DNA from: a virus
Lineage: Duplodnaviria > Caudoviricetes
Virus record (IMG/VR): IMGVR_UViG_3300014613_000007
Coordinates: 1-50,192 of that record
Strand: one strand, 5' to 3'
Length of the DNA stretch: 50,192 nt
In this document: piece by piece, positions 1 to 41,440 of the stretch
How positions within the stretch are numbered: the first letter of the stretch is position 1
Layout of the letters: the number at the start of each line of letters is the position of its first letter
The notes under the pieces: generated by a model
Databases searched by the model: none
Seen by the model: only the letters and a program-made list of their open reading frames with translations
What the model was told of the DNA's origin: nothing
Made by a program: the position numbers and the translations under genes

Positions 1-123
1 CCAAATCATCTGTGTTCTCGATAAGTGTCGGCATAACTACAAAGATTGTTTTGCCATCAATTTGGGCCAATCCGGCAAATTCTTCGTATATTTCAAGTTT
101 TGTATGTTTTGCTTCGCTCATAA
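1..123. repeat. Terminal direct repeat, copy 1 (identical to 50070-50192); circular assembly overlap
   Basis: ccaaatcatctgtg...gcttcgctcataa occurs at both ends; the ORF 49885-50190 start codon also appears at 119-121, directly after gene 125-445. Confidence 0.95.
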
Positions 124-124
124 T

Positions 125-445
125 TCAGTCCTTTTTTTGTTTTGCCCCACACTCTGAACATGGCATTGTTCCTATTCCTGTTATGCCTATTCTAAACAGT
201 CCTTTAATTTCATCGACAAGCTCTGTGTGTTCCTGTAGGAAGGTTTTTAGGGTTCTTTTGGTACTTTGCCTTAGCTTCTTTGAGATAAGCCCTTCACAGA
301 GGCTTACGACACTGGGATAATAGCCAATGGGGACCAACGTTGTCTTTCCGGCCTTTTTTCCTGTTTCGATAACGTGGACTTCGTTCAGAATGAAATTGTA
401 CGCATCGGAAGTCATTACATAATTGTCCGTTATTTGTATGTTCAT
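125..445 (-). CDS. DUF5405-like phage protein
   Basis: N-terminal 'I.D.YV.TSD.YNFILNE......GK.AG......IGYYP' pattern recalled from this family. Confidence 0.6.
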   Translation of the reverse strand: MNIQITDNYVMTSDAYNFILNEVHVIETGKKAGKTTLVPIGYYPSVVSLCEGLISKKLRQSTKRTLKTFLQEHTELVDEIKGLFRIGITGIGTMPCSECGAKQKKD

Positions 446-476
446 TGTTTGCTCTCAGGGTGTTTTTTAGAAATAT

Positions 477-1379
477 TCATTTTTTCCAATTATCCGCCAG
501 TCTTTCAATTTCCTTGCGGTCTTTTTCTTGTTGTCTTATTTGCTTCCTACGCTTATCGTCTTGCGTATGGCTGCCTACAGATATTGTGATAAGCTCGGTT
601 AAAATACGCGGATCGAGGGCGTCAAGTTCCCACGAATCACCGCCGAATATTTCTTTATATGAATCATATCGGCTATCTGTGGTCTTGGCCGGATTAGGCG
701 GCGGCTGATACTCTTCGATTTGCTCCATTGTCAAGGCAATTCTTTCGACCTGTACCGACGAACCGAATATTTCCAACCTATCCTGTATATCTCGGCTCAT
801 GTCGATTCCTGATGGGTCATGGTCGCCTAAATGTATCAGGAAAGTATCCTGCCTTCTCCTTCTTTTGTGTTCACGGACAATAAAACGCTGAGCAGCTATC
901 CACATTTCCGATTGAGAGACAAAGCCCCGACAAGATAAATACCCCACATCAAGTGGGTCGCAAGCCTTCTCAATCACACCGACAAGGGCATCTTTTTCAA
1001 CCCAAACCTCAACGTAATCGTGCTGGTCGATACGTGTATCAATTGCATAACTTTCGGCGGCGGATTGAAGAACTTCCGCAGGGCTATTCCAGTGCGGCAA
1101 AGACTCATAATTGCGAGTCCTGTCAGTAATAGAATTCCAATCAATCAACCCGGCAAGCCTTGCATCGTTAATTACAGAGCCAAGTCTTTTGTACTCGCCC
1201 TGCCTGTTTGCGATAATATCTCTGGATACGTGTTGATAAAATAATTGGCGCAGGGTTAAATCGTACCCTTGCTCCATATATTCCTCGATTATTGCGTTGG
1301 AACTCTCAATAATTGCGAGGGAACTACGGGAAAACCTTTTTTTAATATAAGCTTTTTTCATTGTCTTCTTGACTTTCAT
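477..1379 (-). CDS. Toprim-domain protein (Topo VI-A/Spo11/JetD-like fold) with N-terminal winged helix
   Basis: TLRQLFY winged-helix motif, Toprim VEVWVEKDAL glutamate, RGF.S, HLGDHDPSG (DxD), WELDAL. Confidence 0.8.
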   Translation of the reverse strand: MKVKKTMKKAYIKKRFSRSSLAIIESSNAIIEEYMEQGYDLTLRQLFYQHVSRDIIANRQGEYKRLGSVINDARLAGLIDWNSITDRTRNYESLPHWNSPAEVLQSAAESYAIDTRIDQHDYVEVWVEKDALVGVIEKACDPLDVGYLSCRGFVSQSEMWIAAQRFIVREHKRRRRQDTFLIHLGDHDPSGIDMSRDIQDRLEIFGSSVQVERIALTMEQIEEYQPPPNPAKTTDSRYDSYKEIFGGDSWELDALDPRILTELITISVGSHTQDDKRRKQIRQQEKDRKEIERLADNWKK

Positions 1380-1389
1380 TATCCAGTTA

Positions 1390-1664
1390 TTGCTTTGCCT
1401 TTGCTTTGCATGGCTCCGCCGCGCTCAGCCTTTGCTCCGCCTTCGCGTTGCATTGCTTCACATAGCCAATGCTGTGCACAGCAGAACTTTGCGATGCAAA
1501 ACCTTGCCTTTGCTTAGCATTGCAAAGCCCCGCCTTAGCTTAGCCACGCTCTGCGCTGCTCTGCCTTCGCACAGCTGAGCATTGCTATGCCTTCGCACAG
1601 CCATACCGCGCAATACTAAGCCCTGCCACGCTTCACCTTCGCTTCGCCGCGCCCCGCCTTCGCA
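1390..1664 (-). ncRNA. Non-coding NGY-NN periodic array (53 units); putative guide RNA of the adjacent Cas7-like protein
   Basis: Minus strand parses without gaps as TGCGAA GGCGG GGCGC GGCGA AGCGAA GGTGA ... GGCAA AGCAA; all 53 units have G at position 2 and C/T at position 3; no minus-strand ORF of 60 aa or more. The repeat is certain, the RNA function is inferred. Confidence 0.75.
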
Positions 1665-1670
1665 TATTAT

Positions 1671-2273
1671 TCACTTTTTAATTCTATAAGAAAATCGGCC
1701 ACACCCACTCGTCCTCCATTGTCCCATGCCGAGCAATGCCCCGTATGCCAGCCATTGCACGATGAACTTTTCGAGATTCTTATTGAGACAAGATACCTCA
1801 ATCCTTAATTTCGTTCTCGCCGGTACGGATTCTGATCTTGCAAGGCATATCCGTTCACCTTTCATCGTCTGACCTCTCAAAGGACGTTCGATGAATTCAG
1901 GTTTTGCTCCTTCGGGTAATTCAAGATATATCTTGCGGGGATTAACAAATATCTGCTTGTCGATGGTCTTTTTATAGAGATATGGAGTTAGACGATATTT
2001 TTTAAGCTCCTCTTGTGTCATTGTGCCGGAATATATCATCTGCTCGCACGCTTCCTTGAAGAAACCTTTGAACTGGTAGTCCCAGAGCATCAATTTGTCG
2101 CCGTCTCTGGCAAAAATAGTGCTTGATCCCTCCAATTCTTCGTCCGGGTGCATTTCCGATTCTTCCTCAGATTGACCCTCTGGATGCTTGGAAATTATAA
2201 AATCTTCGGCTATTTCCTTATTGCCCGAAAGCGTTCCCAATAATGGTTCTGTAAATGTTATCTCAATTTTCAT
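1671..2273 (-). CDS. Solitary RAMP/Cas7-like (Csm3/Csf2-like) protein
   Basis: RAMP motifs in the expected order: IEITFTEPLLG (beta1), LWDYQFKGFFKEA (matches 'ipgssiKG.lR'), RSESVPART.L.IEV, and C-terminal G-rich loop YGALLGMGQWRTSGCGRF; RBS GAAGGGA upstream. Confidence 0.85.
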   Translation of the reverse strand: MKIEITFTEPLLGTLSGNKEIAEDFIISKHPEGQSEEESEMHPDEELEGSSTIFARDGDKLMLWDYQFKGFFKEACEQMIYSGTMTQEELKKYRLTPYLYKKTIDKQIFVNPRKIYLELPEGAKPEFIERPLRGQTMKGERICLARSESVPARTKLRIEVSCLNKNLEKFIVQWLAYGALLGMGQWRTSGCGRFSYRIKK

Positions 2274-2310
2274 TTTTTCCCTTCACTTTCTATATGCGGC
2301 AAGGATGCCA

Positions 2311-2409
2311 TTAACAACTTCTCCACATTTGGCGGAAACCCAAATATACAACGAAAATTATCCAGCCAACGAAAAGAATTCTCAAAATATCAACTAAAGT
2401 TTTTATCAT
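2311..2409 (-). CDS. Small membrane peptide (32 aa, MIKTLVDILRILFVGWIIFVVYLGFRQMWRSC)
   Basis: Translated manually; fills the gap between gene 2418-2795 and the RAMP gene; one hydrophobic helix. Confidence 0.45.
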   Translation of the reverse strand: MIKTLVDILRILFVGWIIFVVYLGFRQMWRSC

Positions 2410-2417
2410 TCCGATCT

Positions 2418-2795
2418 TTACTTATAAGTAGAAAGCAATCGTTCAATACGTTGCTCTTCCGCCAAAATCTTCACTTGTTTCTCCTTTTCCCTAACTTCGC
2501 TTTTTTTTTCTATTTGTTGTTTTCTCTGTTCTACCAAAGCGTTAAAATCTTCTATCCATTTGCCTTGGTACAACCAGCCATATTCCTCTGTCCAACCTGA
2601 ATTGCCAGCAACAATCCCATATATTTCAACAGCGTCAGGTATAACCCAAGGAACATCATCATTTTTAAGAACTACACCTTCTGGCAAAAGCCATATTTGA
2701 AATGTTTGTCCGCGACCATGGCTACTCGGATACAAATACAATCTGCCATGTTGCTCTTTGTCGAATATATTCGCATATACATCTGCGCCTTTCAT
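2418..2795 (-). CDS. Hypothetical protein
   Basis: 125-aa ORF with AAGGAG RBS upstream; charged C-terminal helix. Confidence 0.75.
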   Translation of the reverse strand: MKGADVYANIFDKEQHGRLYLYPSSHGRGQTFQIWLLPEGVVLKNDDVPWVIPDAVEIYGIVAGNSGWTEEYGWLYQGKWIEDFNALVEQRKQQIEKKSEVREKEKQVKILAEEQRIERLLSTYK

Positions 2796-3045
2796 TGGTT
2801 GTTCTCCTTTATCTTAAAAAGCAGCATATCCTCTTTATGTAATTTCAAAAAAAGGTGGGGCGCAGTTGATTTCTTGCCGCGCCCCGCACCTAAATGGAGG
2901 AGGGTGTATGCAAAAAAATTGGCCTGCCCGTTTTGAAGCGCAGTCGCCAGACGGACTTCAAGAAGTGTGGACAGGCCAAGGGTAGATTTAATTTTTTCCG
3001 AGTTGCATTGTCCGTCTGGCATTGTAAATCCTTTCTTAACTTTTG

Positions 3046-3081
3046 CACTATATATATAGTAGGGTCAAGCCCGAAAGTCAA
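3046..3081 (-). promoter_or_regulatory. Leftward promoter-like element TTGAC-N8-TTGAC...TATATATA
   Basis: Minus strand TTGACTTTCGGGCTTGACCCTACTATATATATAG; TTGACT-17-TATATA; near copy at 32094-32124 (+). Confidence 0.6.
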
Positions 3082-3182
3082 ATAAAAAATAAAATGGCTG
3101 TTTTTGGGGCAAAAATGAAGGATATTTTTTCACTATTTTCGATTGGACACTTGGTTAATGCAACTGAGAGGTAAAAAGCCAC

Positions 3183-3347
3183 CTATTTTTTGATCTCTCC
3201 GGTAAACTCAAACGCCTGCCGCAGCTTGTGAACGGCAATCTCTATGTCCTGCACGGCGACATATTTATCAGGTGTATCAATGTGACCGTGCATAGTCATC
3301 TTATGTATCAGGTCGTAAAACTTCTTAATGTGCTTGGCGGGTTTCAT
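3183..3347 (-). CDS. Small hypothetical protein (54 aa, MKPAKHIKKF...)
   Basis: Translated manually; ATGA overlap with the stop of 3344-3697. Confidence 0.55.
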   Translation of the reverse strand: MKPAKHIKKFYDLIHKMTMHGHIDTPDKYVAVQDIEIAVHKLRQAFEFTGEIKK

Positions 3348-3697
3348 GGCGGCAATCTACTCAATATTTCCTTGAAGGCTTTGTTTTGTTCGGTCTGAAT
3401 TGCCTGTTGTGCCATTCTTAAATCATCCATCTTTTCATCTAATTGGTCAATATCCTTTCCCATCCCGATCAAAGTCTCGGTATTAGTTATTATTTTGGGT
3501 CTGATTTCGACCTTTATCTCAGCCCTGGTCTCCTGAATTGCCCCCCTGTTAGTCTCGACGTCCTTAACAACTTCCGCCGCTTTCCATGATGTGTTGAGCA
3601 AAAAAGTAAGGGCCGCAACGAACAATGTAACCAACAATGTCGCTAATGATCCGATAATCACCTTCCTGATTGTGCCGTTTCTTCTTTCTTTCGTCAT
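3344..3697 (-). CDS. Single-TM plus coiled-coil protein (holin-like/lysis accessory candidate)
   Basis: N-terminal TM helix then heptad-like helix; located at the end of the virion module. Confidence 0.5.
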   Translation of the reverse strand: MTKERRNGTIRKVIIGSLATLLVTLFVAALTFLLNTSWKAAEVVKDVETNRGAIQETRAEIKVEIRPKIITNTETLIGMGKDIDQLDEKMDDLRMAQQAIQTEQNKAFKEILSRLPP

Positions 3698-3711
3698 TGC
3701 TTTTTCCTCTG

Positions 3712-5505
3712 CTAATCCATGATTATTTCTTTTATTTCAATCTTTTTGCCTTTTTTCACAGGTGAATAAGTATTAACAAATAATCCATGCTCATCAGCTA
3801 TTATTGATAGAAGTATATTTGCTGAATTTTCATCGTTTATAAGTTCGTAAAAATTTTGAATAGGTAAAGGTTCAAATAATTCTCGTATATCACCTTTAAG
3901 AGATATTTTTTCATCTTTTCTGTATTTATAATGTCCGGCAAGATGAGCCAATACTAAATTTGCCGCTGGTGCTGTTTTGTTTTCAAGATAATCTTCAAGA
4001 ATATCCACGCCCGTCAGTTCGCCGAATTTTCCGGTATTGAGTTTTATAAGCTTGCCAGTAGATGTACTCTTGATATATGAATCCTTATTTACCAGTAAAG
4101 GAACAAGTCTTACTGCTAATCTTGTAAGCGCTGCCGTTCCGCCTGATATATCAAATCTGGTATTACCAATCTTGATTTTGCCAAAATCGGAACTATGAGG
4201 GTCCCATTCTACAGTTTCAGGCCATAAAGCATAAGCAATACCAAGAATAAGTCCCTGGGCTACTACAATATGAAGAAGGTTTTTTGCCGCCTCTTTCTTT
4301 GCAAATTTGCTCATATTCTTATCGAATTTGTGCATTGTCAGCACATCAAGGTCTGCCTTTAGCATTCTCGGAGAAAAGAAAATATTACTAATCAAACCCG
4401 GTGCCTGTCTCTTGGCTCCTATTTCACCCCTTGCAGTCAGAGAATTTACAAGTTTGCCTATACTTTCCAATTCGACTTTATCATTTAAGTCAATATCCGA
4501 TTTCCGAGCGATGTTAAAATAATATTTCGCTGTCTTGTAACGGGCGTAATGGGCCGATGCAGTAAAAGCATTATGAGAAGCCAGGAATGGTTTGCCTAAA
4601 TATGGTATATTTTTATACCAGTCAGTAGGTGCTTCTTCCTCGATAACAGCAGTTGCCACTTTGGCTTTCTTCATCATATCATATTCAGGATCGGATAATA
4701 TTTCTGCCCTTATTTCATCCATGACAGGGACACCTCTGAACGTGTCCCAAATGACTTTATAGGATTTTTTGAAGGTGTCCCACCAGATTTTACCACTTTG
4801 GAAATCGCCTGTTATTCCTTTGAAAAACAAGTTTCGACCCTGTTTGCCTATCCAGCTATTATCAAGTGTTGTTCTCATTTCTCTTGATGTTGCCGCGATG
4901 CCTTTCGCCAGATCGCCTATAAACTTGAAAGGATTGTGAAGATATTCCACAACTCTTTCGGATATAGTTTCATGCTCGGCAATCGCTTTAACTGAAGAAA
5001 CATAATTATCAAAAGTTACTAATGTTCTGCCGTAATCCATTCTTGCTTTAGTCGGTTTACCTTCTTCATCTACAGCTTTTTCTCTGTCATAGAGTTCATC
5101 TTTATCGGCAACTTCTTTGGCAAGAGTTGTTATATTGCCTGCTTCCTCCATTGTAACGGTAGTGCCAAGAACATGAGCCGCCAAATCTTTAAGAAAGACA
5201 TCTTCTGTTTCTGGTGTCAAAACTTCCGACATTTTATTGACCCTGTTTACAAGTCCTCTTTGGGCTTCCGGCGTAATACCTGCCACCTTCTTGGCCCATG
5301 TCACCATACCTGTTTGCTGATTTTTGAGAATCAGTTTGGATTCTAATAAAGTATTAAGCTGAACGGCATTAACTTCTCCAAAATGCTCTGAAAAGAAGTT
5401 TCTTCTTTGCTCAGAGGTCATATCTATCATCTTATCGGGAGAGATAGTGCCGGCCTTAATCATATTCAAAAATTTATCAGCAAGATAAGTTGGCAAACAC
5501 CACAT
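3712..5505 (-). CDS. Internal virion (ejection) protein, C-terminal type
   Basis: 597 aa, helical, with late hydrophobic segment and 'DP.SSDFGKIKIGNTRFD' motif; follows the other internal virion genes. Confidence 0.6.
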   Translation of the reverse strand: MWCLPTYLADKFLNMIKAGTISPDKMIDMTSEQRRNFFSEHFGEVNAVQLNTLLESKLILKNQQTGMVTWAKKVAGITPEAQRGLVNRVNKMSEVLTPETEDVFLKDLAAHVLGTTVTMEEAGNITTLAKEVADKDELYDREKAVDEEGKPTKARMDYGRTLVTFDNYVSSVKAIAEHETISERVVEYLHNPFKFIGDLAKGIAATSREMRTTLDNSWIGKQGRNLFFKGITGDFQSGKIWWDTFKKSYKVIWDTFRGVPVMDEIRAEILSDPEYDMMKKAKVATAVIEEEAPTDWYKNIPYLGKPFLASHNAFTASAHYARYKTAKYYFNIARKSDIDLNDKVELESIGKLVNSLTARGEIGAKRQAPGLISNIFFSPRMLKADLDVLTMHKFDKNMSKFAKKEAAKNLLHIVVAQGLILGIAYALWPETVEWDPHSSDFGKIKIGNTRFDISGGTAALTRLAVRLVPLLVNKDSYIKSTSTGKLIKLNTGKFGELTGVDILEDYLENKTAPAANLVLAHLAGHYKYRKDEKISLKGDIRELFEPLPIQNFYELINDENSANILLSIIADEHGLFVNTYSPVKKGKKIEIKEIIMD

Positions 5506-5522
5506 TTAACACCTCAACAAAC

Positions 5523-7736
5523 TTAGCAGCGGATCGACTCGACGAATTCAGTCCAATTCTGGCGGCGGGTAACAGTCTCTCGAATGACTGACCTTATTTC
5601 TTCCGTCATGCGGGAAGTTTCCCGTTTAATACTCTTTATTTTCTTGCGTTTCTTAACAACTTTTTCTCTGGTCTTTTGAATATCCTGCATGGATTTTACA
5701 GGGTCGGCCAATGCAGTTCTGGTATCTGCCGCCTTGATTTCCTGACCCAATGCACTTAATTCAGCCGGTATGGTAGATTCGGTAGCAAGCCGTCTTAAAG
5801 TTTCTACATCATTATCCTTAATGGCTTTATACTTAACCGCTTCGTACATGCTTGCCGCTCGAAGTCCTGTTGGCGGATTCTCTTTACCCATTGCAATCCG
5901 TTTGGCCTGCTCATAATCCCTGTCAATAATCTCAGTAGCCATTTTTGCCTGCTCGGTCATCTTCATAGTTTCATAAGTCGGAAGCTCGCCGAGATTTTCC
6001 GCTAGATGCTTTTCGACGGCAAGTTCTTCAGTACGTTCCGCCAAACGAGATACCTTTCTTTCAGGTTCTGTAGGCTTGGCTCCCTTTTCCACGGCGGGGG
6101 CTTGCTTAAACACACCGACTTCCAATACATTACTGTCTTTGTCAACAAGCACAAAACCGTCATGCCCCATTTTCTCAAGTTTATCTCTGATATTTTGTGC
6201 TTCAAGATTGTCATATTCCTCTTGAGACACTCCTTTTTCAGCAAGAGCATTCCTTTGTTCCTGTGTAAATCCCACGAATTTTGAAAAATCGCTTTCTGTG
6301 CCAACAAAAGGATTATTAAGATTTACTTCTTGTTGGAGTATCTCACCTTCACCACGCCTATAATGTTCGGCAACATTTTTATCCGGGGTATAATATGTAG
6401 CCTTACCATATATCCCTGCATCTAATGCTCCTTCTGTTGATGTGCCTCTATATAAAGTAGCAGAATAAGGTTTTCCCATCTCCGGCGTAATAGTCACTCC
6501 GGCCTGAGTTTGGCCAACTACGGCCTTGCTGGGGGCTGCAATGGCCTCTGTGGGGGGTGCTTCGGCAGCAATAGGCTTGGCAAATACCTCTACTCCAACT
6601 GCTTTTTTCCCTTTAATGGCAGAAACCGCCATATCGAAACCACCTCTTATTGCAACAGGGCCACCAGCAGAAGCACCGCCAACCCACGCATTTTCCGGTA
6701 TGGCTTTTATACCCTCATTGAGAGCTTTTATTGCTGCCTCCTCTATGCCCATTCCTTTTGTGGTTTCAAGTCCGAAGACTTCCAGAAATCTTTGATTAAA
6801 TCCGGTAATCCCCTCTTGCGTGGCGTTTTCAAGAATAACACCCAAAGCTTCCCTAAGACTGAATCCCTCTTTTACACCTTTGAATATTTTGGGTAAAACG
6901 AGCATTTCTCCGCCAATTTCAGCAACTTCAGATAAGTTACCAATAACATTGGCCTTCATTATCGAAGCACCGCCCTCTAATTGGGTTTGAAAAGCTGAAC
7001 CACCTTCCATTTCACCCAAAAGAGCAAGTGCCACGGTCGGATCACCGGTCAATAATGTAATCCCCAAAGCTGCCGCCATAGAAGGAACGCCTGATTGAGT
7101 CACCAACCGCATTGCTTTTGTAATAGGCGCGTTTTTGATAATTTCTCGGTCTTGAGTTTCGGCCAGTTTTCTTTGTTCCTCCTGAAATATTGTACCGGCA
7201 ATATGGGGAAGTCTCGTTATAAGACCAAATGCCTCCGCTAATGTACCCATCGGCCAGTCTTTTGTCATTGGACGAATCATTCCGGGGATGTTCGGTAATT
7301 CTTCGCGTTTCATTGGCTTAACCGGCTCGAATTGATGCTTTACCATTTCATCGGGAAATATTCCCCCACCTGAAAGCATCATAGCTCTTCTCTTAATCGC
7401 AAACATCGTAGAGGCGGCAAGACCGATTGTGCCTATCTTTATATTCTCCGGCGTCTCATATAGGGCTTTTTCTATATCGGACATAAGATCAAGTTTTTCA
7501 GCCTGCTTTTTTAACTCCGGTTCCATGTCAAAAGCCATTTCCGGGGGAATACCGTATTGTTGACTATAGTAGAGACTATTCTCCGTTCGCTCACGAAGTT
7601 CCTTGGATAATTCAAAATTCGGCAAATCGGGAAATTCGGGACTCAGACCGCTTCCGTATCGAGGACTAAGTTCAGGTATGTCACTCAATTTAACAGGTCC
7701 TTGTACTTCAGGAATTTCACTGAGCTTTATTGGCAT
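5523..7736 (-). CDS. Internal virion (ejection) protein with an embedded ADP-ribosyltransferase-like domain
   Basis: Gly/Ala-rich membrane-like segment typical of ejection proteins; LYRG...GIYGKATYYT...A.HY...NLNNPF...GHDG...EVGVF at about 6100-6465. Confidence 0.6.
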   Translation of the reverse strand: MPIKLSEIPEVQGPVKLSDIPELSPRYGSGLSPEFPDLPNFELSKELRERTENSLYYSQQYGIPPEMAFDMEPELKKQAEKLDLMSDIEKALYETPENIKIGTIGLAASTMFAIKRRAMMLSGGGIFPDEMVKHQFEPVKPMKREELPNIPGMIRPMTKDWPMGTLAEAFGLITRLPHIAGTIFQEEQRKLAETQDREIIKNAPITKAMRLVTQSGVPSMAAALGITLLTGDPTVALALLGEMEGGSAFQTQLEGGASIMKANVIGNLSEVAEIGGEMLVLPKIFKGVKEGFSLREALGVILENATQEGITGFNQRFLEVFGLETTKGMGIEEAAIKALNEGIKAIPENAWVGGASAGGPVAIRGGFDMAVSAIKGKKAVGVEVFAKPIAAEAPPTEAIAAPSKAVVGQTQAGVTITPEMGKPYSATLYRGTSTEGALDAGIYGKATYYTPDKNVAEHYRRGEGEILQQEVNLNNPFVGTESDFSKFVGFTQEQRNALAEKGVSQEEYDNLEAQNIRDKLEKMGHDGFVLVDKDSNVLEVGVFKQAPAVEKGAKPTEPERKVSRLAERTEELAVEKHLAENLGELPTYETMKMTEQAKMATEIIDRDYEQAKRIAMGKENPPTGLRAASMYEAVKYKAIKDNDVETLRRLATESTIPAELSALGQEIKAADTRTALADPVKSMQDIQKTREKVVKKRKKIKSIKRETSRMTEEIRSVIRETVTRRQNWTEFVESIRC

Positions 7737-9349
7737 TATTTAACTTCCTCAACAAGTGGCTCACCATCATCAAACCCAACAACATTCCATTTTTTTCCGC
7801 CTTTCCTTATCGTATCACCAATCTTGTATGGAGATTTTTCTTTCATATAGGGCTTTAATCCGGCAGTATAAGCGGCCTCGGTCCTTGAAAAAAACCGCGA
7901 CCATAAACCTTTCCCCTTAACAATATCTCCGGCAAGTTTTTCCTTTGCCGGAGCAAGAATGTCCTGTGTGATTTCTACTTTTTGTTTCGGAGTCATATCG
8001 GGTTTTTCACGAAATATCCGTCTTATTTCCTCCCGACGCGCCATGGATAAAACTTCGACATTGGCTAATTGTTCGGGAGTAGTATCCTCAGATATATCCA
8101 AGGTCTTTTTGTAATCAGTAGTAAATCTTCCTTCTGCTGCTAACGCATCTACCAACATCGGGTCGGTTACCTTAGTTCCAATCTTTCTTATATCATCGTT
8201 AATTTCATCATTATCGGAAGATGTAAATATCCATGCGTTATCCTGCCATAGCTTTTTAGCTTCTTCTTTTTTCCCAGCTTCTATCAAATCATATATATCA
8301 TTTCTCGTCTTTCCTCTTTCGAGTTGATCGCTTTCTTTTCCTGCATTTTTTACCTGACTATCAAGAAAATGCTGCAATTCCCTAACTTGCGCGGCATCCG
8401 TAAATGTCCCACTGTTTGCTGCCTGTATGATTTTAGCTTTAATTTGTGAGTAAGAAAGTCTTTGCTCGGAAGGAATATTTGTATCAGTAGATTTGATAAT
8501 GTCGTTACTAATCTCGATTTCAATAGCCTCGGCATGTGCTTTAGCTTCTTCTTTGGCTATCCTCTCGGTATTGGATTTTGCAGCCTGATAATCCTTTTTC
8601 AGTTCCGCTATCTCGTCCGGCCCGAAAAGAGGCTGGTCAAAATACTTATCAGCTCCGATTTTCTTCACGTATTCGTTGGGATGGTCGATGTAATAATTTT
8701 TCGTGACTGTTCCATCTTCATCAATTTTATCTGGATGCTGTCTGATATAATTGCCGATATGAAAACTGTAATCACTCTCCTGCTTTTCTTTATATTGCTC
8801 GGTAGTTTGCAAATCCTGTATATCGCCACTTTCCAATGCGGGCGACATTGTAAGATTAAACTGTATCAGAAAACGACCGAGATCTATTTCATTGTTAAAT
8901 TGCCTTTCCTTAGAGCGTTCAACTTTCCATGTCTTTATATTGACCTGATTATTTACAATATCCTGTTGCCGGGCTTGTTTTCTGACAGAATTTATACCAA
9001 GCTGTTTGGTAGCATCAAGCTGTCGTTCAAGTTCTTTTTTTGCCTTGCCATCCATATCTTCGAGAAGATAATCTTTATATTTAGGAAAAAAATCATTTAC
9101 ATAATAATCTTCTTTTTCCTGTGGTGACTTGCTCCTGTTCTCGTGTATCCAGGCATCAAATTCATCCTGCATTTTTAAGTTGCGAAATTCGGCCTGGGCT
9201 ATCTGAGAACTGTATCTCGACTTAGTTTCACCTTCCGAAATGTCCGCGCCAATCTCAAATAAAACATCGCCCGCCCTTTGAATTGCCGGGCCTACTTGAG
9301 AATATCTATATCTTGATCCGCCAAGTGCCATTATGCCATTGCCCCCCAC
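7736..9349 (-). CDS. Internal virion protein (T7 gp15-like position)
   Basis: 537-aa charged helical protein between the gp14-like gene and the large ejection genes. Confidence 0.55.
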   Translation of the reverse strand: MGGNGIMALGGSRYRYSQVGPAIQRAGDVLFEIGADISEGETKSRYSSQIAQAEFRNLKMQDEFDAWIHENRSKSPQEKEDYYVNDFFPKYKDYLLEDMDGKAKKELERQLDATKQLGINSVRKQARQQDIVNNQVNIKTWKVERSKERQFNNEIDLGRFLIQFNLTMSPALESGDIQDLQTTEQYKEKQESDYSFHIGNYIRQHPDKIDEDGTVTKNYYIDHPNEYVKKIGADKYFDQPLFGPDEIAELKKDYQAAKSNTERIAKEEAKAHAEAIEIEISNDIIKSTDTNIPSEQRLSYSQIKAKIIQAANSGTFTDAAQVRELQHFLDSQVKNAGKESDQLERGKTRNDIYDLIEAGKKEEAKKLWQDNAWIFTSSDNDEINDDIRKIGTKVTDPMLVDALAAEGRFTTDYKKTLDISEDTTPEQLANVEVLSMARREEIRRIFREKPDMTPKQKVEITQDILAPAKEKLAGDIVKGKGLWSRFFSRTEAAYTAGLKPYMKEKSPYKIGDTIRKGGKKWNVVGFDDGEPLVEEVK

Positions 9350-28195: not shown

Positions 28196-28819
28196 TCATT
28201 CCTCGACCTCGTTCGGACCAAATAAATCAATATTATCAAGATTGTCAAACATCCATTGAATATTCTCTCGGTTTATTGGGAAAGGATTTTTTCTTGAATG
28301 TTCTATTTTGCCAGCCAAAATCAACATTTTTAATTCTTGAAGAATTGGTTCGTTTGGCTCCACCCATTTTATAGCTACCGGCCCGTTCGGCTCACCATAT
28401 CGCATACATCCATAGAGACATTCCGGCAGAATTTCCAGGAACTTCTCCTTTGTAACATCGGCTACAACGATATTGCCCTCAACGTGAAAGCTTGCTGAGC
28501 TATTTGAGCTTATGCCAAACGTAAACGTCTTTTGCATAAAATAATTGTAATCAACAGTCAATCCTCCATCTGTTGTATTTACATCAACATCTTCTCCGAA
28601 TTTAATGTTGTTCGGATCGCTAGGCTCTATGAATGTGCAATGTCTCATCGTAAACATGGGTTCATTTGGCTCGTTCGGCTTCGACTCTTTATTCTGCCAT
28701 GAATCGGCGCAATAGTTAATAACATAAGCTACGCTACCACCCAATATTCCACCAATTATAAGGATGATACAATAAAAGAAAACTATCGCCGCATATGTCA
28801 ATATAAATTGTTTCGTCAT
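28196..28819 (-). CDS. Membrane-anchored protein with EPN/DPN repeats
   Basis: N-terminal TM segment, KPNEPNEP, DPNN, EPNG, EPNEP; AAGGA RBS. Confidence 0.65.
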   Translation of the reverse strand: MTKQFILTYAAIVFFYCIILIIGGILGGSVAYVINYCADSWQNKESKPNEPNEPMFTMRHCTFIEPSDPNNIKFGEDVDVNTTDGGLTVDYNYFMQKTFTFGISSNSSASFHVEGNIVVADVTKEKFLEILPECLYGCMRYGEPNGPVAIKWVEPNEPILQELKMLILAGKIEHSRKNPFPINRENIQWMFDNLDNIDLFGPNEVEE

Positions 28820-29149
28820 ATTTTCCTTTTAGGCCTTCGATTCATTTACTCATTCTCTTATGGGCCCTTTTGGCTCCACGTACTGTTTTGTAAGTCCTTA
28901 TCTTCTTACCCTTATTCTTCCCGTGACAATGATATATAGTCCTTCCTTTGCGCATTAAGAGACTACCTCATGTGCCTTCTGATTTGACCCGTTGCTCGAT
29001 TGTCCCTAAAAACACGAAACTGAACATTTTTACCTCTAAAATCGATTTTATGAACTAAACCACAATCACAACAACGCATTCTATAACCCTTTTTAACAGG
29101 AGTTATCCATCTTCCAGCTATTTCTTCTTTATACTTTGACATAATCCAA

Positions 29150-36055: not shown

Positions 36056-37027
36056 CTATACCCCTATATTGTTGCTGGAAAATCGTATTTCCCACTGTTT
36101 TAATTCCTGCGAAACAATACTTCTGGCGTCATCCTGCTTGTGCTGCAAAATAGATTTTCTAATAATATCCGTACAGAATTCTTCTATTTCTGAATAACTG
36201 CTATCTTTTAACTTTTCAGATAATGTTTGAGAACTATAGCTGAAATTACATTTGCTCTTATGGGAAATGCTGTCAATATACGACACTATTTGTTTTTTAT
36301 TTGGACGTTTTAATTCCAAACGTAATTGAAATCTACGCCATACTGCCCGATCCAAAAGTTCCGGATGATTGCTCGCAGTGATAATAACAATATATGTAGG
36401 CAATCTATCCATCTGCAACAACAACGAACTCACAACCCGTTTGATTTCCCCAGTTTCCTTCGTATCACCACGCTCTTTGCCAATCGTGTCAAATTCATCA
36501 AAAAACAGTACACAATTTCGAGTTTTTGCATAATCAAAAACTTTTTGAAGTCGAGAAGCTGTTTCACCAAGATAACTGCCAATAAGGTTCTCGTATCGGA
36601 TAACAAAGAAAGGATACATCAATTGAGTAGCAAAAGCTTCAGCAAGGCTTGTTTTTCCGTTGCCTGGAGGTCCAGCAAGTAATATTCTGTTGCGCGGTTC
36701 CAGGCCATAACTTCTCAATAGATCTGCTCGATGTTGTTCTTCAACAAGCTCTTGGCATATACTCAAGACCGTTTCATCCAGGATTAAATCCTCAAAAGTC
36801 TTCTGCGCTTCAGTTTCAAACAATAAATCTTTCGCTTCACCTTTGGCGTACATGGATAAGCCGTTCTTGTTTCCATTATTGAGAGAGGTCGCCAATCTGT
36901 CGGCTAAAATATTGTGCTTCTTTGCTCTTTCTTCGGCGATCAAACTCTCAACGGCTTTGCGAAATGAAACCATATCGCCCCGATTTGCCGACTGGACTAC
37001 AGATAGCAGTATATCCGATCTGGCCAT
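36056..37027 (-). CDS. AAA+ ATPase of the IetA-like (S8-protease-associated) type, without a partner protease
   Basis: Walker A GPPGNGKT, Walker B FFDEFD, GE.KRVV.SLL, SRH ASNHPELLDRAVWRRF; N-terminal MARSD...F....E.LIAEER.K.H..LA..L. Confidence 0.85.
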   Translation of the reverse strand: MARSDILLSVVQSANRGDMVSFRKAVESLIAEERAKKHNILADRLATSLNNGNKNGLSMYAKGEAKDLLFETEAQKTFEDLILDETVLSICQELVEEQHRADLLRSYGLEPRNRILLAGPPGNGKTSLAEAFATQLMYPFFVIRYENLIGSYLGETASRLQKVFDYAKTRNCVLFFDEFDTIGKERGDTKETGEIKRVVSSLLLQMDRLPTYIVIITASNHPELLDRAVWRRFQLRLELKRPNKKQIVSYIDSISHKSKCNFSYSSQTLSEKLKDSSYSEIEEFCTDIIRKSILQHKQDDARSIVSQELKQWEIRFSSNNIGV

Positions 37028-39908: not shown

Positions 39909-40556
39909 TCAAAATGGAATGTCGTCATTTATAACAGAGCTTATTGTTATCGGCTCTTTGAAAAGTTTGCCGCTTTTTATTCCGGTTTTTTTATTTCTTT
40001 TATTCATAAACTCCCTTAGCCATCGTTTTGTCTTTGTGTCCGGTCCGTTCAGGATGTCCAATATAGCTTTCTCTTTTGCCTGTTGGCGACGGACATAGAC
40101 AGAACAACCTTCCTCTCCGTAATAACCCGTATCTTCCTTTTCATCTATATTATAAAAATGCACAATGTGACCCGGCTCTATATTGTCGTTGCAATACTGA
40201 CGCACCCTTTCAGCCTTGTCTTCGATTTCCTGTCTGGGACAATCAGCATTACCCCACCAATCAAAGAACCGTTTTCTGCCGTCTTTTGTTAGAATTCCGA
40301 ACAGTGCTGCCTGCCTGCCGGTCTTGTACTTTGCCGCAACATATTGTCGAATAGCAGCCATAATGTGAGGCATCTTCGGGTATCTGTCTTTCTCCCACGT
40401 TTTGTAAAGCTCGTTGATCGCGTTCTTGGCTGTGTCGAAGTCGAATTTACGAAGTTCATCAATCCAGACTTTAAGCTCTTGCCCCCTAAAGTCCCAGTTC
40501 GGCCAGTGGGCTTTGATAGTGTTCTCAATAACATCGTTGGCTTGTTCTTCCGTCAT
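39909..40556 (-). CDS. Helicase loader/inhibitor-like protein (G39P-like N-terminus)
   Basis: MT..Q....I......WP...W...L..FD...A..A......YP....I; downstream of the initiator; DDIPF tail. Confidence 0.55.
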   Translation of the reverse strand: MTEEQANDVIENTIKAHWPNWDFRGQELKVWIDELRKFDFDTAKNAINELYKTWEKDRYPKMPHIMAAIRQYVAAKYKTGRQAALFGILTKDGRKRFFDWWGNADCPRQEIEDKAERVRQYCNDNIEPGHIVHFYNIDEKEDTGYYGEEGCSVYVRRQQAKEKAILDILNGPDTKTKRWLREFMNKRNKKTGIKSGKLFKEPITISSVINDDIPF

Positions 40557-41440
40557 TCGAATAACACCCTCTGCCCTTGCCTTGCCTCTTTTACCGAAAC
40601 TCCGGTATCAACTGCCCTTAAACGGTCTCTGGCTATCTCACAATAATCGCTCGAAATTTCTATGCCTATGTAGCGACGGCCTAACTTTTTGGCTGCTACG
40701 CAGGTTGTGCCGACGCCGCAGAAGGGGTCAAGGATTACACAATCATCTGCGTGACAGAATAGACGAATCAATCTTAAAGGAATTTCTTCTGGAAAGGTTG
40801 CTGGATGTAAATCATTTCTCTGATTCTGTATAAACCATACATCCTTCGTGTAATCATTATATGGCACAGCGGTTGCACCACGTCTACCTGTGCCACCTCT
40901 ATGGAACCATTGCTCTTTTGAACCTAACAATATTAACTCATGCGCTCCCCGCAGATAAGGATCGCTATCACAACCCATTTGATTTCCTGAACAAATAGCA
41001 ATCTCATCTGTTCCTTTAACCCAGACGATAGATTCCCGAAGATGTGTATCAAATTGTAACATTATTCTCTGAATTTTCATTGCTATCGGTTCTATTCTTG
41101 CTTTTCCATTTCGTTTCTCAGGTCCACGGTGCCACCTATATTTATTGTCAAAGCCAGTCCACGTTCTTGCATACTTATGATCTGGTTGCCATTTTATTGT
41201 AGGGGGTACATTTATTGCTATAGTGCCTCCCTTAACAAGTATTCTATATGACATAAAAATGACGTGTGCAATTTCATCGTAGTAATCATCCCATGATTTT
41301 TCATCAATAAAACCTTTATAAAATTTGCCTACATTATATGGTGGACTAAATATCACCAAATCCACGCACCCATCAGGCCAGTCTTTCATAACCTCAAGGC
41401 AGTCCCCGCAGATTATTTGATTTATCGGATGTTCCGTCAT
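40553..41440 (-). CDS. DNA amino-methyltransferase (beta class, N4-C/N6-A)
   Basis: GDCLE, catalytic SPPY, HPATFP, SAM-binding DPFCGVGTT. Confidence 0.92.
   Translation of the reverse strand: MTEHPINQIICGDCLEVMKDWPDGCVDLVIFSPPYNVGKFYKGFIDEKSWDDYYDEIAHVIFMSYRILVKGGTIAINVPPTIKWQPDHKYARTWTGFDNKYRWHRGPEKRNGKARIEPIAMKIQRIMLQFDTHLRESIVWVKGTDEIAICSGNQMGCDSDPYLRGAHELILLGSKEQWFHRGGTGRRGATAVPYNDYTKDVWFIQNQRNDLHPATFPEEIPLRLIRLFCHADDCVILDPFCGVGTTCVAAKKLGRRYIGIEISSDYCEIARDRLRAVDTGVSVKEARQGQRVLFE

What the first reader, a model, noticed from the sequence alone, without database searches (positions are those of the whole stretch)
1390..2273. Solitary Cas7/RAMP-like gene followed by a 53-unit NGY-NN array: candidate phage RNA-guided system with a non-CRISPR guide
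Seen: a 200-aa protein with RAMP motifs, ending in the G-rich loop GMGQWRTSGCGRF. Six nt after its stop codon on the same strand begins a 275-nt tract that parses without gaps into 53 units with invariant G-Y at positions 2-3 (47 GC, 6 GT) and variable flanking bases. I recognised no other cas gene or CRISPR array in the genome. Established: Cas7 RAMPs polymerise along RNA with a fixed nucleotide step. Inference: each 5-nt unit binds one subunit through the constant GY, and the variable NN bases spell a gapped target. This matches my recollection of virus-encoded Cas7-ancestor systems with GGY/NN repeat RNAs (VIPR), which I cannot verify here. This copy is a variant with a relaxed first base (G 20, A 17, T 13, C 3).
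Basis: partly seen in the sequence, partly recalled or inferred. Interest (0 to 1): 0.96.

Follow-up and report, generated by a model that had tools for sequence, protein, structure and literature searches.

The report
Phage VIPR guide-RNA system, staggered array
A groundwater phage carries a small Cas7-like protein gene followed directly by a 275-base array of five-base repeats, which makes it a member of the phage "VIPR" RNA-guided DNA-silencing systems first described in 2026 preprints rather than a new kind of system.

Summary
Gene 2273..1671 (-) encodes a 200-aa protein. Six bases after its stop codon, on the same strand, lies a 275-nt tract (1664..1390) with 53 G-Y anchors (47 GC, 6 GT). 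Of the 53 units, 43 are 5 nt and 10 are 6 nt. Simulated windows give chains of at most 8 units.

The 6-nt units are a near-constant punctuation, mostly GC-R-AAG. They cut the array into blocks of 1 to 9 units, and each following block opens with GGY.

The AF2 model (pLDDT 86.5) has a Cas7/Csm3-type RAMP fold: Z up to 11.6, and all 50 rows shown are CRISPR RAMPs. A family profile aligns with the SUSP1 Vipr family over 183 columns (probability 74%, E 2.7e-5) and shares its G-loop.

Relatives are common in viral contigs. In 41 of 80 loci a chain of at least 9 units lies within 1 kb of the gene, mostly downstream on the gene strand. Close relatives keep the flanking genes at 74-84% DNA identity, but their arrays cannot be aligned.

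This matches VIPR (bioRxiv 10.64898/2026.04.26.720920), including its YNNNG repeats and staggered arrays. No target was found, and transcription of the array was not shown. This scan has noted VIPR-type loci in at least 15 other genomes. Verdict: new member of a known kind.

The parts
1671..2273 (-). vipr gene: 200-aa single-RRM RAMP (Cas7-like) protein. Its G-loop at residues 182-194 carries Q185-W186-R187.
   Evidence: ORF. AF2 pLDDT 86.5, pTM 0.81. Foldseek PDB top hits are type VII Cas7 and Csm3, E 7.5e-7. VIA-align Z 11.6-11.4 to Cmr/Csm3/type VII Cas7, and all 50 rows shown are CRISPR RAMPs. hhalign A3 vs the SUSP1 Vipr family: 183 columns, probability 74%, E 2.7e-5. No Pfam, PHROG, NCBIfam or PADLOC match.
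1665..1670 (-). 6-nt spacer between the stop codon and the first array unit. No terminator-like site lies here.
   Evidence: Sequence; terminator scan.
1389..1664 (-). vrRNA-type array: 53 G-Y-anchored units (43 of 5 nt, 10 of 6 nt) in blocks of 1, 4, 9, 5, 6, 5, 8, 5, 2, 6 and 2 units. It ends 10 nt before the ATG of the next gene.
   Evidence: The same architecture occurs in relatives. Strand asymmetry. It is hypervariable between conserved flanks.
1399..1663 (-). Ten 6-nt punctuation units at 1663-1658, 1642-1637, 1596-1591, 1570-1565, 1539-1534, 1513-1508, 1472-1467, 1446-1441, 1435-1430 and 1404-1399. Five are GCGAAG, three GCAAAG, one GCTAAG, one GCATTG. Each is followed by G-Y, so every following block opens with GGY.
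   Evidence: Family-wide, position 6 is G in 91% of 499 hexamers and positions 3-5 are A-rich.
2357..2385 (-). Promoter-like site (10 of 12) upstream of vipr. This is a weak lead only.
   Evidence: One search found 4 sites in the region against 3.7 expected from shuffles. One 338-nt contig of a metatranscriptome run, identical to the window, covers 2071-2408.
477..1379 (-). Next gene downstream, 300 aa, PHROG 6247 'DNA topoisomerase' (Toprim-like). It is a neighbour, not a conserved partner.
   Evidence: PHROG E 6.7e-104. A homologue is adjacent in 1 of 100 related loci, L088.

Best explanation
This is a VIPR (Viral Interference Programmable Repeat) system of a complete tailed-phage genome. 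It has the little-studied form with only two fixed letters per repeat (G-Y, written YNNNG in the paper) and a staggered, tail-less array.

Likely mechanism:
1. vipr and the array are transcribed together from the minus strand (inferred from the 6-nt spacing and the absence of a terminator-like site).
2. Vipr protomers bind one per unit and clamp the G-Y scaffold with the G-loop W186/R187 and the thumb (inferred by homology with the SUSP1 structures).
3. The variable bases are presented to double-stranded DNA of a competing phage, satellite or prophage. Binding silences transcription (inferred from the published type II system).
4. The 6-nt GC-R-AAG units shift the register by one base and mark the boundaries between short guides of mostly 5-7 units (inferred from the conserved grammar).

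Shown here: the fold, the homology, the array statistics, their conservation across the family, the strand bias and the hypervariability. Not shown here: transcription of the array, RNA binding, the pairing rule and the targets.
For: - RAMP fold: pLDDT 86.5; 97 PDB matches at E<=1e-3; the top ones are type VII Cas7 and Csm3; Z up to 11.6; all 50 rows shown are CRISPR RAMPs.
- Homology to an experimentally characterised Vipr. SUSP1 Vipr was taken from KT454805.2 and carries H17, R138 and D177-W178-R179 as the structure paper states. Profile-profile alignment gives 183 columns, probability 74%, E 2.7e-5, with a high-confidence G-loop alignment G-x-G-[D/Q]-W-R...G-R-F (weaker with shallower profiles).
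- Array: 53 units against at most 8 in simulations.
- Family: 199 homologues; 1,839 clusters at E<=1e-3; 508 of 578 candidate viral stretches encode a relative.
- Arrays beside homologues: 41 of 80 loci have a chain of at least 9 units within 1 kb (39 downstream). Only 5 such chains occur in 266,376 bp lying more than 2 kb away.
- Gene strand favoured: 3,047 against 1,402 units; 48 loci against 6.
- Close relatives (79-96% aa identity) have the same grammar but unrelated variable bases.
- In L088 the vipr gene (79% DNA identity) and the Toprim gene (74%) flank an array that cannot be aligned.
- Context: a complete virus record with terminal repeats and no Cas1, Pfam RAMP or CRISPR array.
- Literature: YNNNG repeats and staggered arrays with 1-nt offsets are named in the VIPR paper. 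Non-canonical 5-mer scaffolds next to Vipr-like folds are also reported in 10.64898/2026.10.21.760802 (passages only).
Against: - No target was found.
  - No block matches the window or 80 related loci better than unit-shuffled controls under seven skip rules.
  - An exact 1-nt-skip pattern of the 9-unit block gave 7 IMG/VR hits (4 independent sites) against 18 for a reversed-order control.
  - 93 family blocks against 1.49 million positions (about 0.75 Mb, both strands), and 208 blocks against 95 vipr genes, showed no excess.
- Transcription of the array is not shown. The only RNA contig covers 2071-2408.
- Sequence similarity to type II Vipr is remote. It is limited to the G-loop unless a deep profile is used.
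- No vap gene is present and no structured 3' tail, both typical of the characterised type II loci.
- Blocks of 1, 2 or 4 units look too short to specify a target.
Confidence: 0.87

Rival explanations
1. The protein-RNA filament is real but does not silence DNA. It might target RNA. Alternatively the long array might act as a decoy that soaks up the Vipr protein of competing phages (anti-VIPR), or as a scaffold with a different output.
For: No DNA target was found. Many blocks are very short, 1-5 units. The structure paper reports that the filament also pairs with ssRNA.
Against: Published VIPR types all act on DNA so far. The variable positions are hypervariable between close relatives, which fits guides under arms-race selection better than a decoy.
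Confidence: 0.07
2. The tract works as DNA, not RNA. It would be an array of protein-binding sites (iteron- or origin-like) or a recombination-prone simple repeat, and the RAMP gene beside it would be unrelated.
For: GC is its own complement, so part of the periodicity is visible on both strands. The neighbours are replication-type genes: a Toprim protein, and a replication-initiation PHROG at 125-445.
Against: The anchor is G-Y on the gene strand only. GT occurs in 6 of 53 units here and 681 of 3,047 family-wide, so chains break on the other strand. The array travels with the RAMP gene, not with replication genes: the Toprim gene is adjacent in 1 of 100 loci.
Confidence: 0.03
3. It is a decaying or inactive remnant of a VIPR locus.
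For: There are short terminal blocks of 2 units, no tail and no vap gene.
Against: The gene is intact and keeps all 21 invariant family residues. All 53 anchors are intact. The same array sequence is found unchanged in contigs of DNA runs from 2017 and 2019 (X7 record 13 over 916-1779 and X10 record 3 over 1142-1602, 0 differences each).
Confidence: 0.02
4. The tract is translated into a low-complexity peptide.
For: ORFs of 51-82 aa overlap it on both strands.
Against: A 5-nt period with +1 shifts is not a codon period. The ORFs are not conserved, and the arrays of close relatives differ in length and cannot be aligned while the flanking genes stay at 74-84% identity. Opposite-strand ORFs over arrays arise from base composition.
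Confidence: 0.01

Closest known systems
VIPR systems with alternative YNNNG repeats and staggered vrRNA arrays (bioRxiv 10.64898/2026.04.26.720920: methods 'VIPR type classification' and the legend of fig. S18)
   Same: Phage-borne, small single-RRM RAMP protein outside any CRISPR context. The array sits beside the gene on the same strand. The period is 5 nt with a fixed Y...G scaffold and three variable letters. Successive guides are offset by one base, with no ribozyme or tail between them.
   Different: I could read only the text and legends, not fig. S16-S18 or data S4. I therefore cannot say which of the seven types this clade belongs to, or whether it was among the 667 loci. I did not see the GC-R-AAG hexamer punctuation or the 5-7-unit block length described.
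Type II VIPR of Escherichia phage SUSP1 (Vipr + Vap1 + four ~100-nt vrRNAs; structures in bioRxiv 10.64898/2026.04.26.720927)
   Same: RAMP fold; G-loop G-x-G-x-W-R...G-R-F; one protomer per 5-nt unit (published for SUSP1, inferred here); phage-encoded.
   Different: - The SUSP1 scaffold is GGY with 2 variable bases. Here it is G-Y with 3.
- The G1-reading residues D177 and H17 are Q185 and a gap here.
- SUSP1 vrRNAs have 9-16 repeats plus a pseudoknot tail. Here there are 11 blocks of 1-9 units without a tail.
- No vap gene here.
- Sequence identity is about 18% over the profile alignment.
Cas7-family RAMPs of class 1 CRISPR-Cas (Csm3, Cmr4, type VII Cas7)
   Same: Best structural matches (Z 11.4-11.6; Foldseek E 1e-6 to 1e-7). 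RRM core, thumb hairpin and glycine-rich loop. They polymerise on a guide RNA with a fixed step.
   Different: No CRISPR array, no Cas1 and no other cas genes in the genome. The step is 5 nt, not 6. The guide is a tandem short repeat rather than a spacer.
Non-canonical VIPR-like 5-mer arrays found by a genomic language model (bioRxiv 10.64898/2026.10.21.760802, passages only)
   Same: Arrays of period 5 with scaffolds other than GGY, next to Vipr-like folds.
   Different: The motifs quoted there (GAC/NN, CAC/NN, WGT/NN, TGH/NN) keep three scaffold positions and repeat about 10 times. They are not G-Y with hexamer punctuation.

Membership tests
VIPR | Vipr protein: small RAMP with one RRM core, glycine-rich loop and thumb, lacking a second RRM | tested here: met
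   200 aa. AF2 pLDDT 86.5. All 50 top VIA rows and the listed Foldseek rows are CRISPR RAMPs, aligned over residues 1-200. The long beta hairpin 126-150 and the C-terminal G-loop are visible in the model's secondary structure.
VIPR | Homology to an experimentally characterised Vipr (SUSP1) | tested here: met
   hhalign A3 (90 sequences) vs A2 (40 sequences of the SUSP1 family): 183 columns, probability 74.4%, E 2.7e-5, high confidence only in the G-loop. With shallower profiles only 27-35 G-loop columns align. Support is moderate.
VIPR | Adjacent tandem pentanucleotide array with a fixed scaffold and hypervariable bases, on the gene strand | tested here: met
   53 units. 41 of 80 related loci have one within 1 kb. 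Positions 3-5 carry 0.04-0.2 bits. Arrays of close relatives are unrelated in their variable bases. Strand bias.
VIPR | Canonical GGY/NN repeat consensus | tested here: not met
   G precedes G-Y in 20 of 53 units here, and in 29% of 2,096 pooled units. The paper allows 'a related consensus', including YNNNG. So this excludes the canonical type II form, not VIPR as a whole.
VIPR | Non-CRISPR, mostly viral context | tested here: met
   Complete virus record with terminal repeats. Tail, head and adaptor PHROGs. No Cas1, no Pfam RAMP match and no CRISPR-like repeats.
VIPR | Accessory vap gene next to vipr ('typically') | tested here: not met
   None of 8 window neighbours recurs in 80 viral loci. 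The only neighbour cluster shared across divergent loci is the set of ORF artefacts over the arrays. The Toprim gene is adjacent in 1 of 100 loci. The paper also lists stand-alone genes.
VIPR | vrRNA expressed and bound by Vipr | not testable with these tools
   Only contigs of one metatranscriptome run were available. One covers 2071-2408 and none covers the array.
VIPR | Variable bases match DNA of competing elements with a one-base skip | tested here: inconclusive
   No excess over controls in the sequence I could search. The databases and the exact-match limit make this a weak test.
VIPR type II (SUSP1-like) | Each vrRNA ends in a conserved structured 3' tail | tested here: not met
   Blocks follow one another directly, and the array ends 10 nt before the next ATG. 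No Rfam match.
CRISPR-Cas class 1 effector (Cas7/Csm3) | Encoded with other cas genes and a CRISPR array | tested here: not met
   No PADLOC or NCBIfam Cas match for the protein.

The most novel reading that the evidence does not exclude
In this clade the first scaffold base has been freed. The G-loop Asp that reads G1 in SUSP1 is an invariant Gln, and the His is missing. Each protomer might therefore present three bases and read the target without a skipped base, giving a different code from the published 1-nt-skip rule.

The GC-R-AAG hexamers may also define very short guides of about one helical turn (5-7 protomers). These would be cut or phased without a tail, ribozyme or Cas6.

Neither point is described in the text I could read.
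Probability: 0.2. Interest if true: 0.6.

Novelty: new member of a known kind. Interest (0 to 1): 0.36.

Why it matters
The kind of system is already in print (preprints from April 2026), so this locus is not a discovery in itself. It is a clean, compact, complete example. About 1 kb holds a gene plus 11 blocks, in a complete 50-kb phage genome, and it represents the least studied VIPR form. That form is very abundant: 1,839 protein clusters at 50% identity match the family profile.

It offers a small test object for three open questions about VIPR:
- How are tail-less staggered arrays phased or processed?
- Is the freed third base read?
- How can guides as short as 5-7 units be specific?

Tried and rejected
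- Fourier power at period 5 in 100-nt windows did not pick out the array, because the phase shifts every few units. I replaced it with chain finding that allows 5- and 6-nt steps.
- Sequence libraries gave nothing for the protein: Pfam, PHROGs, NCBIfam, PADLOC and PDB sequences.
- Megablast of 1-8000 against phage records gave no match.
- tblastn against phage records found 4 unannotated gut-phage records at 40-42% identity and no SUSP1.
- BFVD did not return SUSP1 Vipr. Its best hit is a 40%-identical virome protein that its depositor named a RAMP superfamily protein.
- Rfam and tRNA scans found nothing.
- The RNA fold of the array has z = -3.2. I put this down to the self-complementary GC anchors and draw nothing from it.
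- The Toprim gene as an effector or vap: rejected as a conserved partner, since it is adjacent in 1 of 100 loci.
- Targets: see the Against line. One guide of L082 matches the first codons of vipr in L093 (17 of 18) and L004 (16 of 18, both mismatches at third positions). The controlled test of 208 blocks against 95 vipr genes shows no enrichment, so I treat this as chance.
- Codon-like signature in the variable triplets. Sense stop triplets are at 0.62 of expectation, but this is general TA avoidance (TAC is at 0.32). Coupling across the G-Y anchor is weak (z 2.5). This is inconclusive for the pairing rule.
- RNA evidence. No contig of the metatranscriptome run covers the array. With contigs this says nothing either way.
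- The profile search lists only its best 150 hits, so I could not see whether its tail reaches the type II family.
- Supplements of the VIPR papers are closed. Fig. S16-S18 and data S4 may already show this clade and its grammar.
Full report
**What is there.** On the minus strand, ORF 2273..1671 encodes a 200-aa protein. Its stop codon is followed by six bases and then by a tract, 1664..1390, in which a G-pyrimidine dinucleotide recurs.

- Of 62 GY dinucleotides in 1380-1670, 42 have another GY five bases later, against 0-11 at lags 1-4 and 6-9.
- A chain finder that allows steps of 5 or 6 nt links 53 anchors from 1663 to 1393: 47 GC and 6 GT, with 43 five-base and 10 six-base units.
- Twenty first-order-Markov simulations of the whole window gave longest chains of 5-8 units.
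- The window has no other chain of 8 or more units outside this tract.
- The one correction: 275 nt is 43x5 + 10x6, not 53x5. A fixed 5-nt phase holds for only 2-9 units at a time.

**Grammar of the array.** The ten 6-nt units are not random. Five are GCGAAG, three GCAAAG, one GCTAAG and one GCATTG.

- Each hexamer is followed by G-Y, so every following block opens with GGY, the canonical VIPR scaffold.
- The blocks hold 1, 4, 9, 5, 6, 5, 8, 5, 2, 6 and 2 units.
- The array starts with a hexamer directly after the stop codon and ends 10 nt before the ATG of the next gene. There is no room for a structured tail.
- The same grammar holds across the family. I pooled 127 distinct chains from 60 of 100 related loci, giving 2,096 pentamers and 499 hexamers.
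  - Position 6 of the hexamers is G in 91%, and their positions 3-5 are A-rich (63, 66 and 54% A).
  - Positions 3-5 of the pentamers carry only 0.04-0.2 bits.
  - 264 of 372 complete blocks have 5-7 units.
- Another first-stage note on this same stretch (e1-6298496) also saw the hexamer punctuation.

**The protein.** No profile library recognises it: Pfam, PHROGs, NCBIfam and PADLOC give nothing. Neither does a sequence search of the PDB.

- It has 199 homologues at E<=1e-3 among 244 candidates. A profile of 48 of them finds 1,839 clusters at 50% identity (E<=1e-3), 596 of them at E<=1e-30.
- An AlphaFold2 model built on that alignment is confident (mean pLDDT 86.5, pTM 0.81).
- Foldseek against the PDB gives 97 matches at E<=1e-3, led by type VII Cas7 and Csm3 (E 7.5e-7 to 8e-6, TM about 0.5-0.55).
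- An independent all-against-all aligner gives Z 11.6-11.4 to Cmr, Csm3 and type VII Cas7. All 50 rows shown are CRISPR RAMP proteins.

**Link to published Vipr.** VIPR is real and in print as preprints. From 10.64898/2026.04.26.720920 I read the Results, methods sections 18 and 20, and passages with the supplementary legends. From 10.64898/2026.04.26.720927 I read the abstract and Results part 1.

- I fetched phage SUSP1 (KT454805.2). Its 195-aa gene at 28474-29061 lies between two long intergenic regions with GGT-NN repeats. It carries H17, R138 and D177-W178-R179, as the structure paper describes.
- A single-sequence or shallow-profile comparison aligns only the G-loop: 27 columns at probability 30%, and 35 columns at probability 48% with E 1.8e-4.
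- With a deeper profile of this family (90 representatives, A3) against 40 SUSP1-family proteins (A2), hhalign aligns 183 columns at probability 74% and E 2.7e-5.
- In the confident G-loop part, SUSP1 D177-W178-R179 aligns with Q185-W186-R187 here.
- In SUSP1, Trp stacks on G2, Arg holds Y3, and Asp plus H17 read G1.
- In this family Q185 is invariant in A1 and at least 90% conserved in A3. H17 falls in a 5-residue gap.
- That two G1-reading residues are changed while G1 is no longer conserved in the RNA is a coherent picture. It remains an inference from alignment, not a structural result.

**Do homologues carry arrays?** Yes.

- Of 578 candidate stretches in viral contigs, 508 encode a relative, and I examined the best 80.
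- 39 of the 80 have a chain of at least 9 units starting within 1 kb downstream on the gene strand, 4 have one upstream, and 41 have either. Only 5 such chains occur in the 266,376 bp lying more than 2 kb from the gene.
- The other 39 loci are not empty. Two that I read (L036, L020) show more degenerate arrays with the same GC-AAAG-GC words.
- Some arrays are very long: L002 has 158 units upstream and 101 downstream.
- The gene strand is favoured: 3,047 units against 1,402 on the opposite strand, and 48 loci against 6, with 8 ties, among 101. This fits a strand-specific, hence RNA-level, element.

**Hypervariability.** Seven close relatives from metagenome contigs (79-96% protein identity) all have the same grammar, but their variable bases are unrelated.

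- At the DNA level, L082 aligns with the window at 84% from 2411 to 1665 plus the first 49 nt around the array start, and then stops.
- In L088 both flanking genes align (vipr 79%, the downstream Toprim gene 74%), but the array between them does not.
- That is the signature the VIPR paper reports for guide positions.
- Within the population sampled by public runs the array is stable. DNA contigs of two runs from different studies cover 916-1779 and 1142-1602 without a difference.

**Context.** The window is the whole record, a virus genome with direct terminal repeats rated complete. It encodes tail, major head and adaptor proteins.

- There is no Cas1, no Pfam RAMP match and no CRISPR-like repeat.
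- No accessory gene is conserved. None of eight neighbouring proteins recurs in the 80 viral loci. The only neighbour cluster shared by divergent loci is an artefact of ORFs over the arrays.
- The Toprim-like gene that follows the array (PHROG 6247, E 6.7e-104) is adjacent in 1 of 100 loci. The idea that it is the effector (note e1-6298497) is therefore not supported.

**What I could not show.**

Targets:
- No block matches the window or the 80 loci better than unit-shuffled controls under seven skip rules. The only perfect hits are the array itself.
- The exact 1-nt-skip pattern of the first eight units of the 9-unit block has 7 IMG/VR hits. These are 4 independent sites, none extends to the ninth unit, and the skipped bases equal the guide's third base in only 1-4 of 8 positions. 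A reversed-order control has 18 hits.
- 93 family blocks against 1.49 million positions, and 208 blocks against 95 vipr genes, show no excess under any rule.
- A tempting hit of an L082 guide on the start of other vipr genes is within chance by that control.
- These are weak tests: the local sequence set is small and collection scans allow exact matches only.

Transcription:
- One identical 338-nt contig of a groundwater metatranscriptome covers 2071-2408, the 5' part of vipr and its upstream region. None covers the array, and contigs cannot show absence.
- A promoter-like site lies at 2385-2357, but the number of such sites equals chance.

**Verdict.** This is a VIPR locus of the YNNNG, staggered-array form. 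The main text and legends of the discovery paper mention that form but do not characterise it. A second group reports further non-canonical scaffolds (passages only). A third preprint (10.64898/2026.10.15.759431) returned no passage for the six terms I searched, among them staggered arrays, processing and YNNNG repeats.

This scan's own earlier follow-ups reached the same verdict on similar loci in other genomes. I list these as agreeing notes, not as evidence.

- Novelty: new member of a known kind.
- What may still be new: the hexamer punctuation, the one-turn block length, and the possibility that the freed third base is read.
- I could not see the supplements that might already cover these points.

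Noticed in passing
P0246 (458 aa) and P0256 (432 aa), hits: Two family members are tandem fusions of two Vipr-like modules. Each module has its own G-Q-W-R glycine loop. They are a double RAMP in one chain, reminiscent of fused multi-Cas7 effectors.
   Followed up: partly
window 1685-1750 and 2053-2091: DNA contigs of several groundwater runs break or diverge here. One X9 contig joins 1685 to 1750, skipping 64 nt of the vipr 3' end. X7 and X10 contigs carry a different but similar sequence below 1750. Co-existing strain variants may differ from the vipr 3' end into the array.
   Followed up: no
window 477-1379 (-): A 300-aa Toprim-like protein (PHROG 6247 'DNA topoisomerase', E 6.7e-104) starts 10 nt after the array. 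It is shared with only 1 of 100 related loci.
   Followed up: yes
L082 2400-2693, L086 1151-1537, L087 2931-3374: Neighbouring blocks within one array often share their last two or three units, or whole stretches of units. This suggests that arrays grow by block duplication followed by divergence.
   Followed up: no
L085 and L087 arrays: In some close relatives the punctuation hexamer is GC-A-[AT]-T-G or similar rather than GC-R-AAG. Only the final G, and hence GGY at the next block, is constant.
   Followed up: partly
window 36056-37027 (-) and 40553-41440 (-): The phage also encodes an AAA-type ATPase (PHROG 3757, E 7.5e-82) and a DNA methyltransferase (PHROG 67, E 1.1e-54). These are possible defence or counter-defence genes.
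   Followed up: no
window 2310-2402 (-): A 31-codon ORF with a hydrophobic core lies between the 125-aa ORF and vipr, read from the sequence. It was not checked.
   Followed up: no
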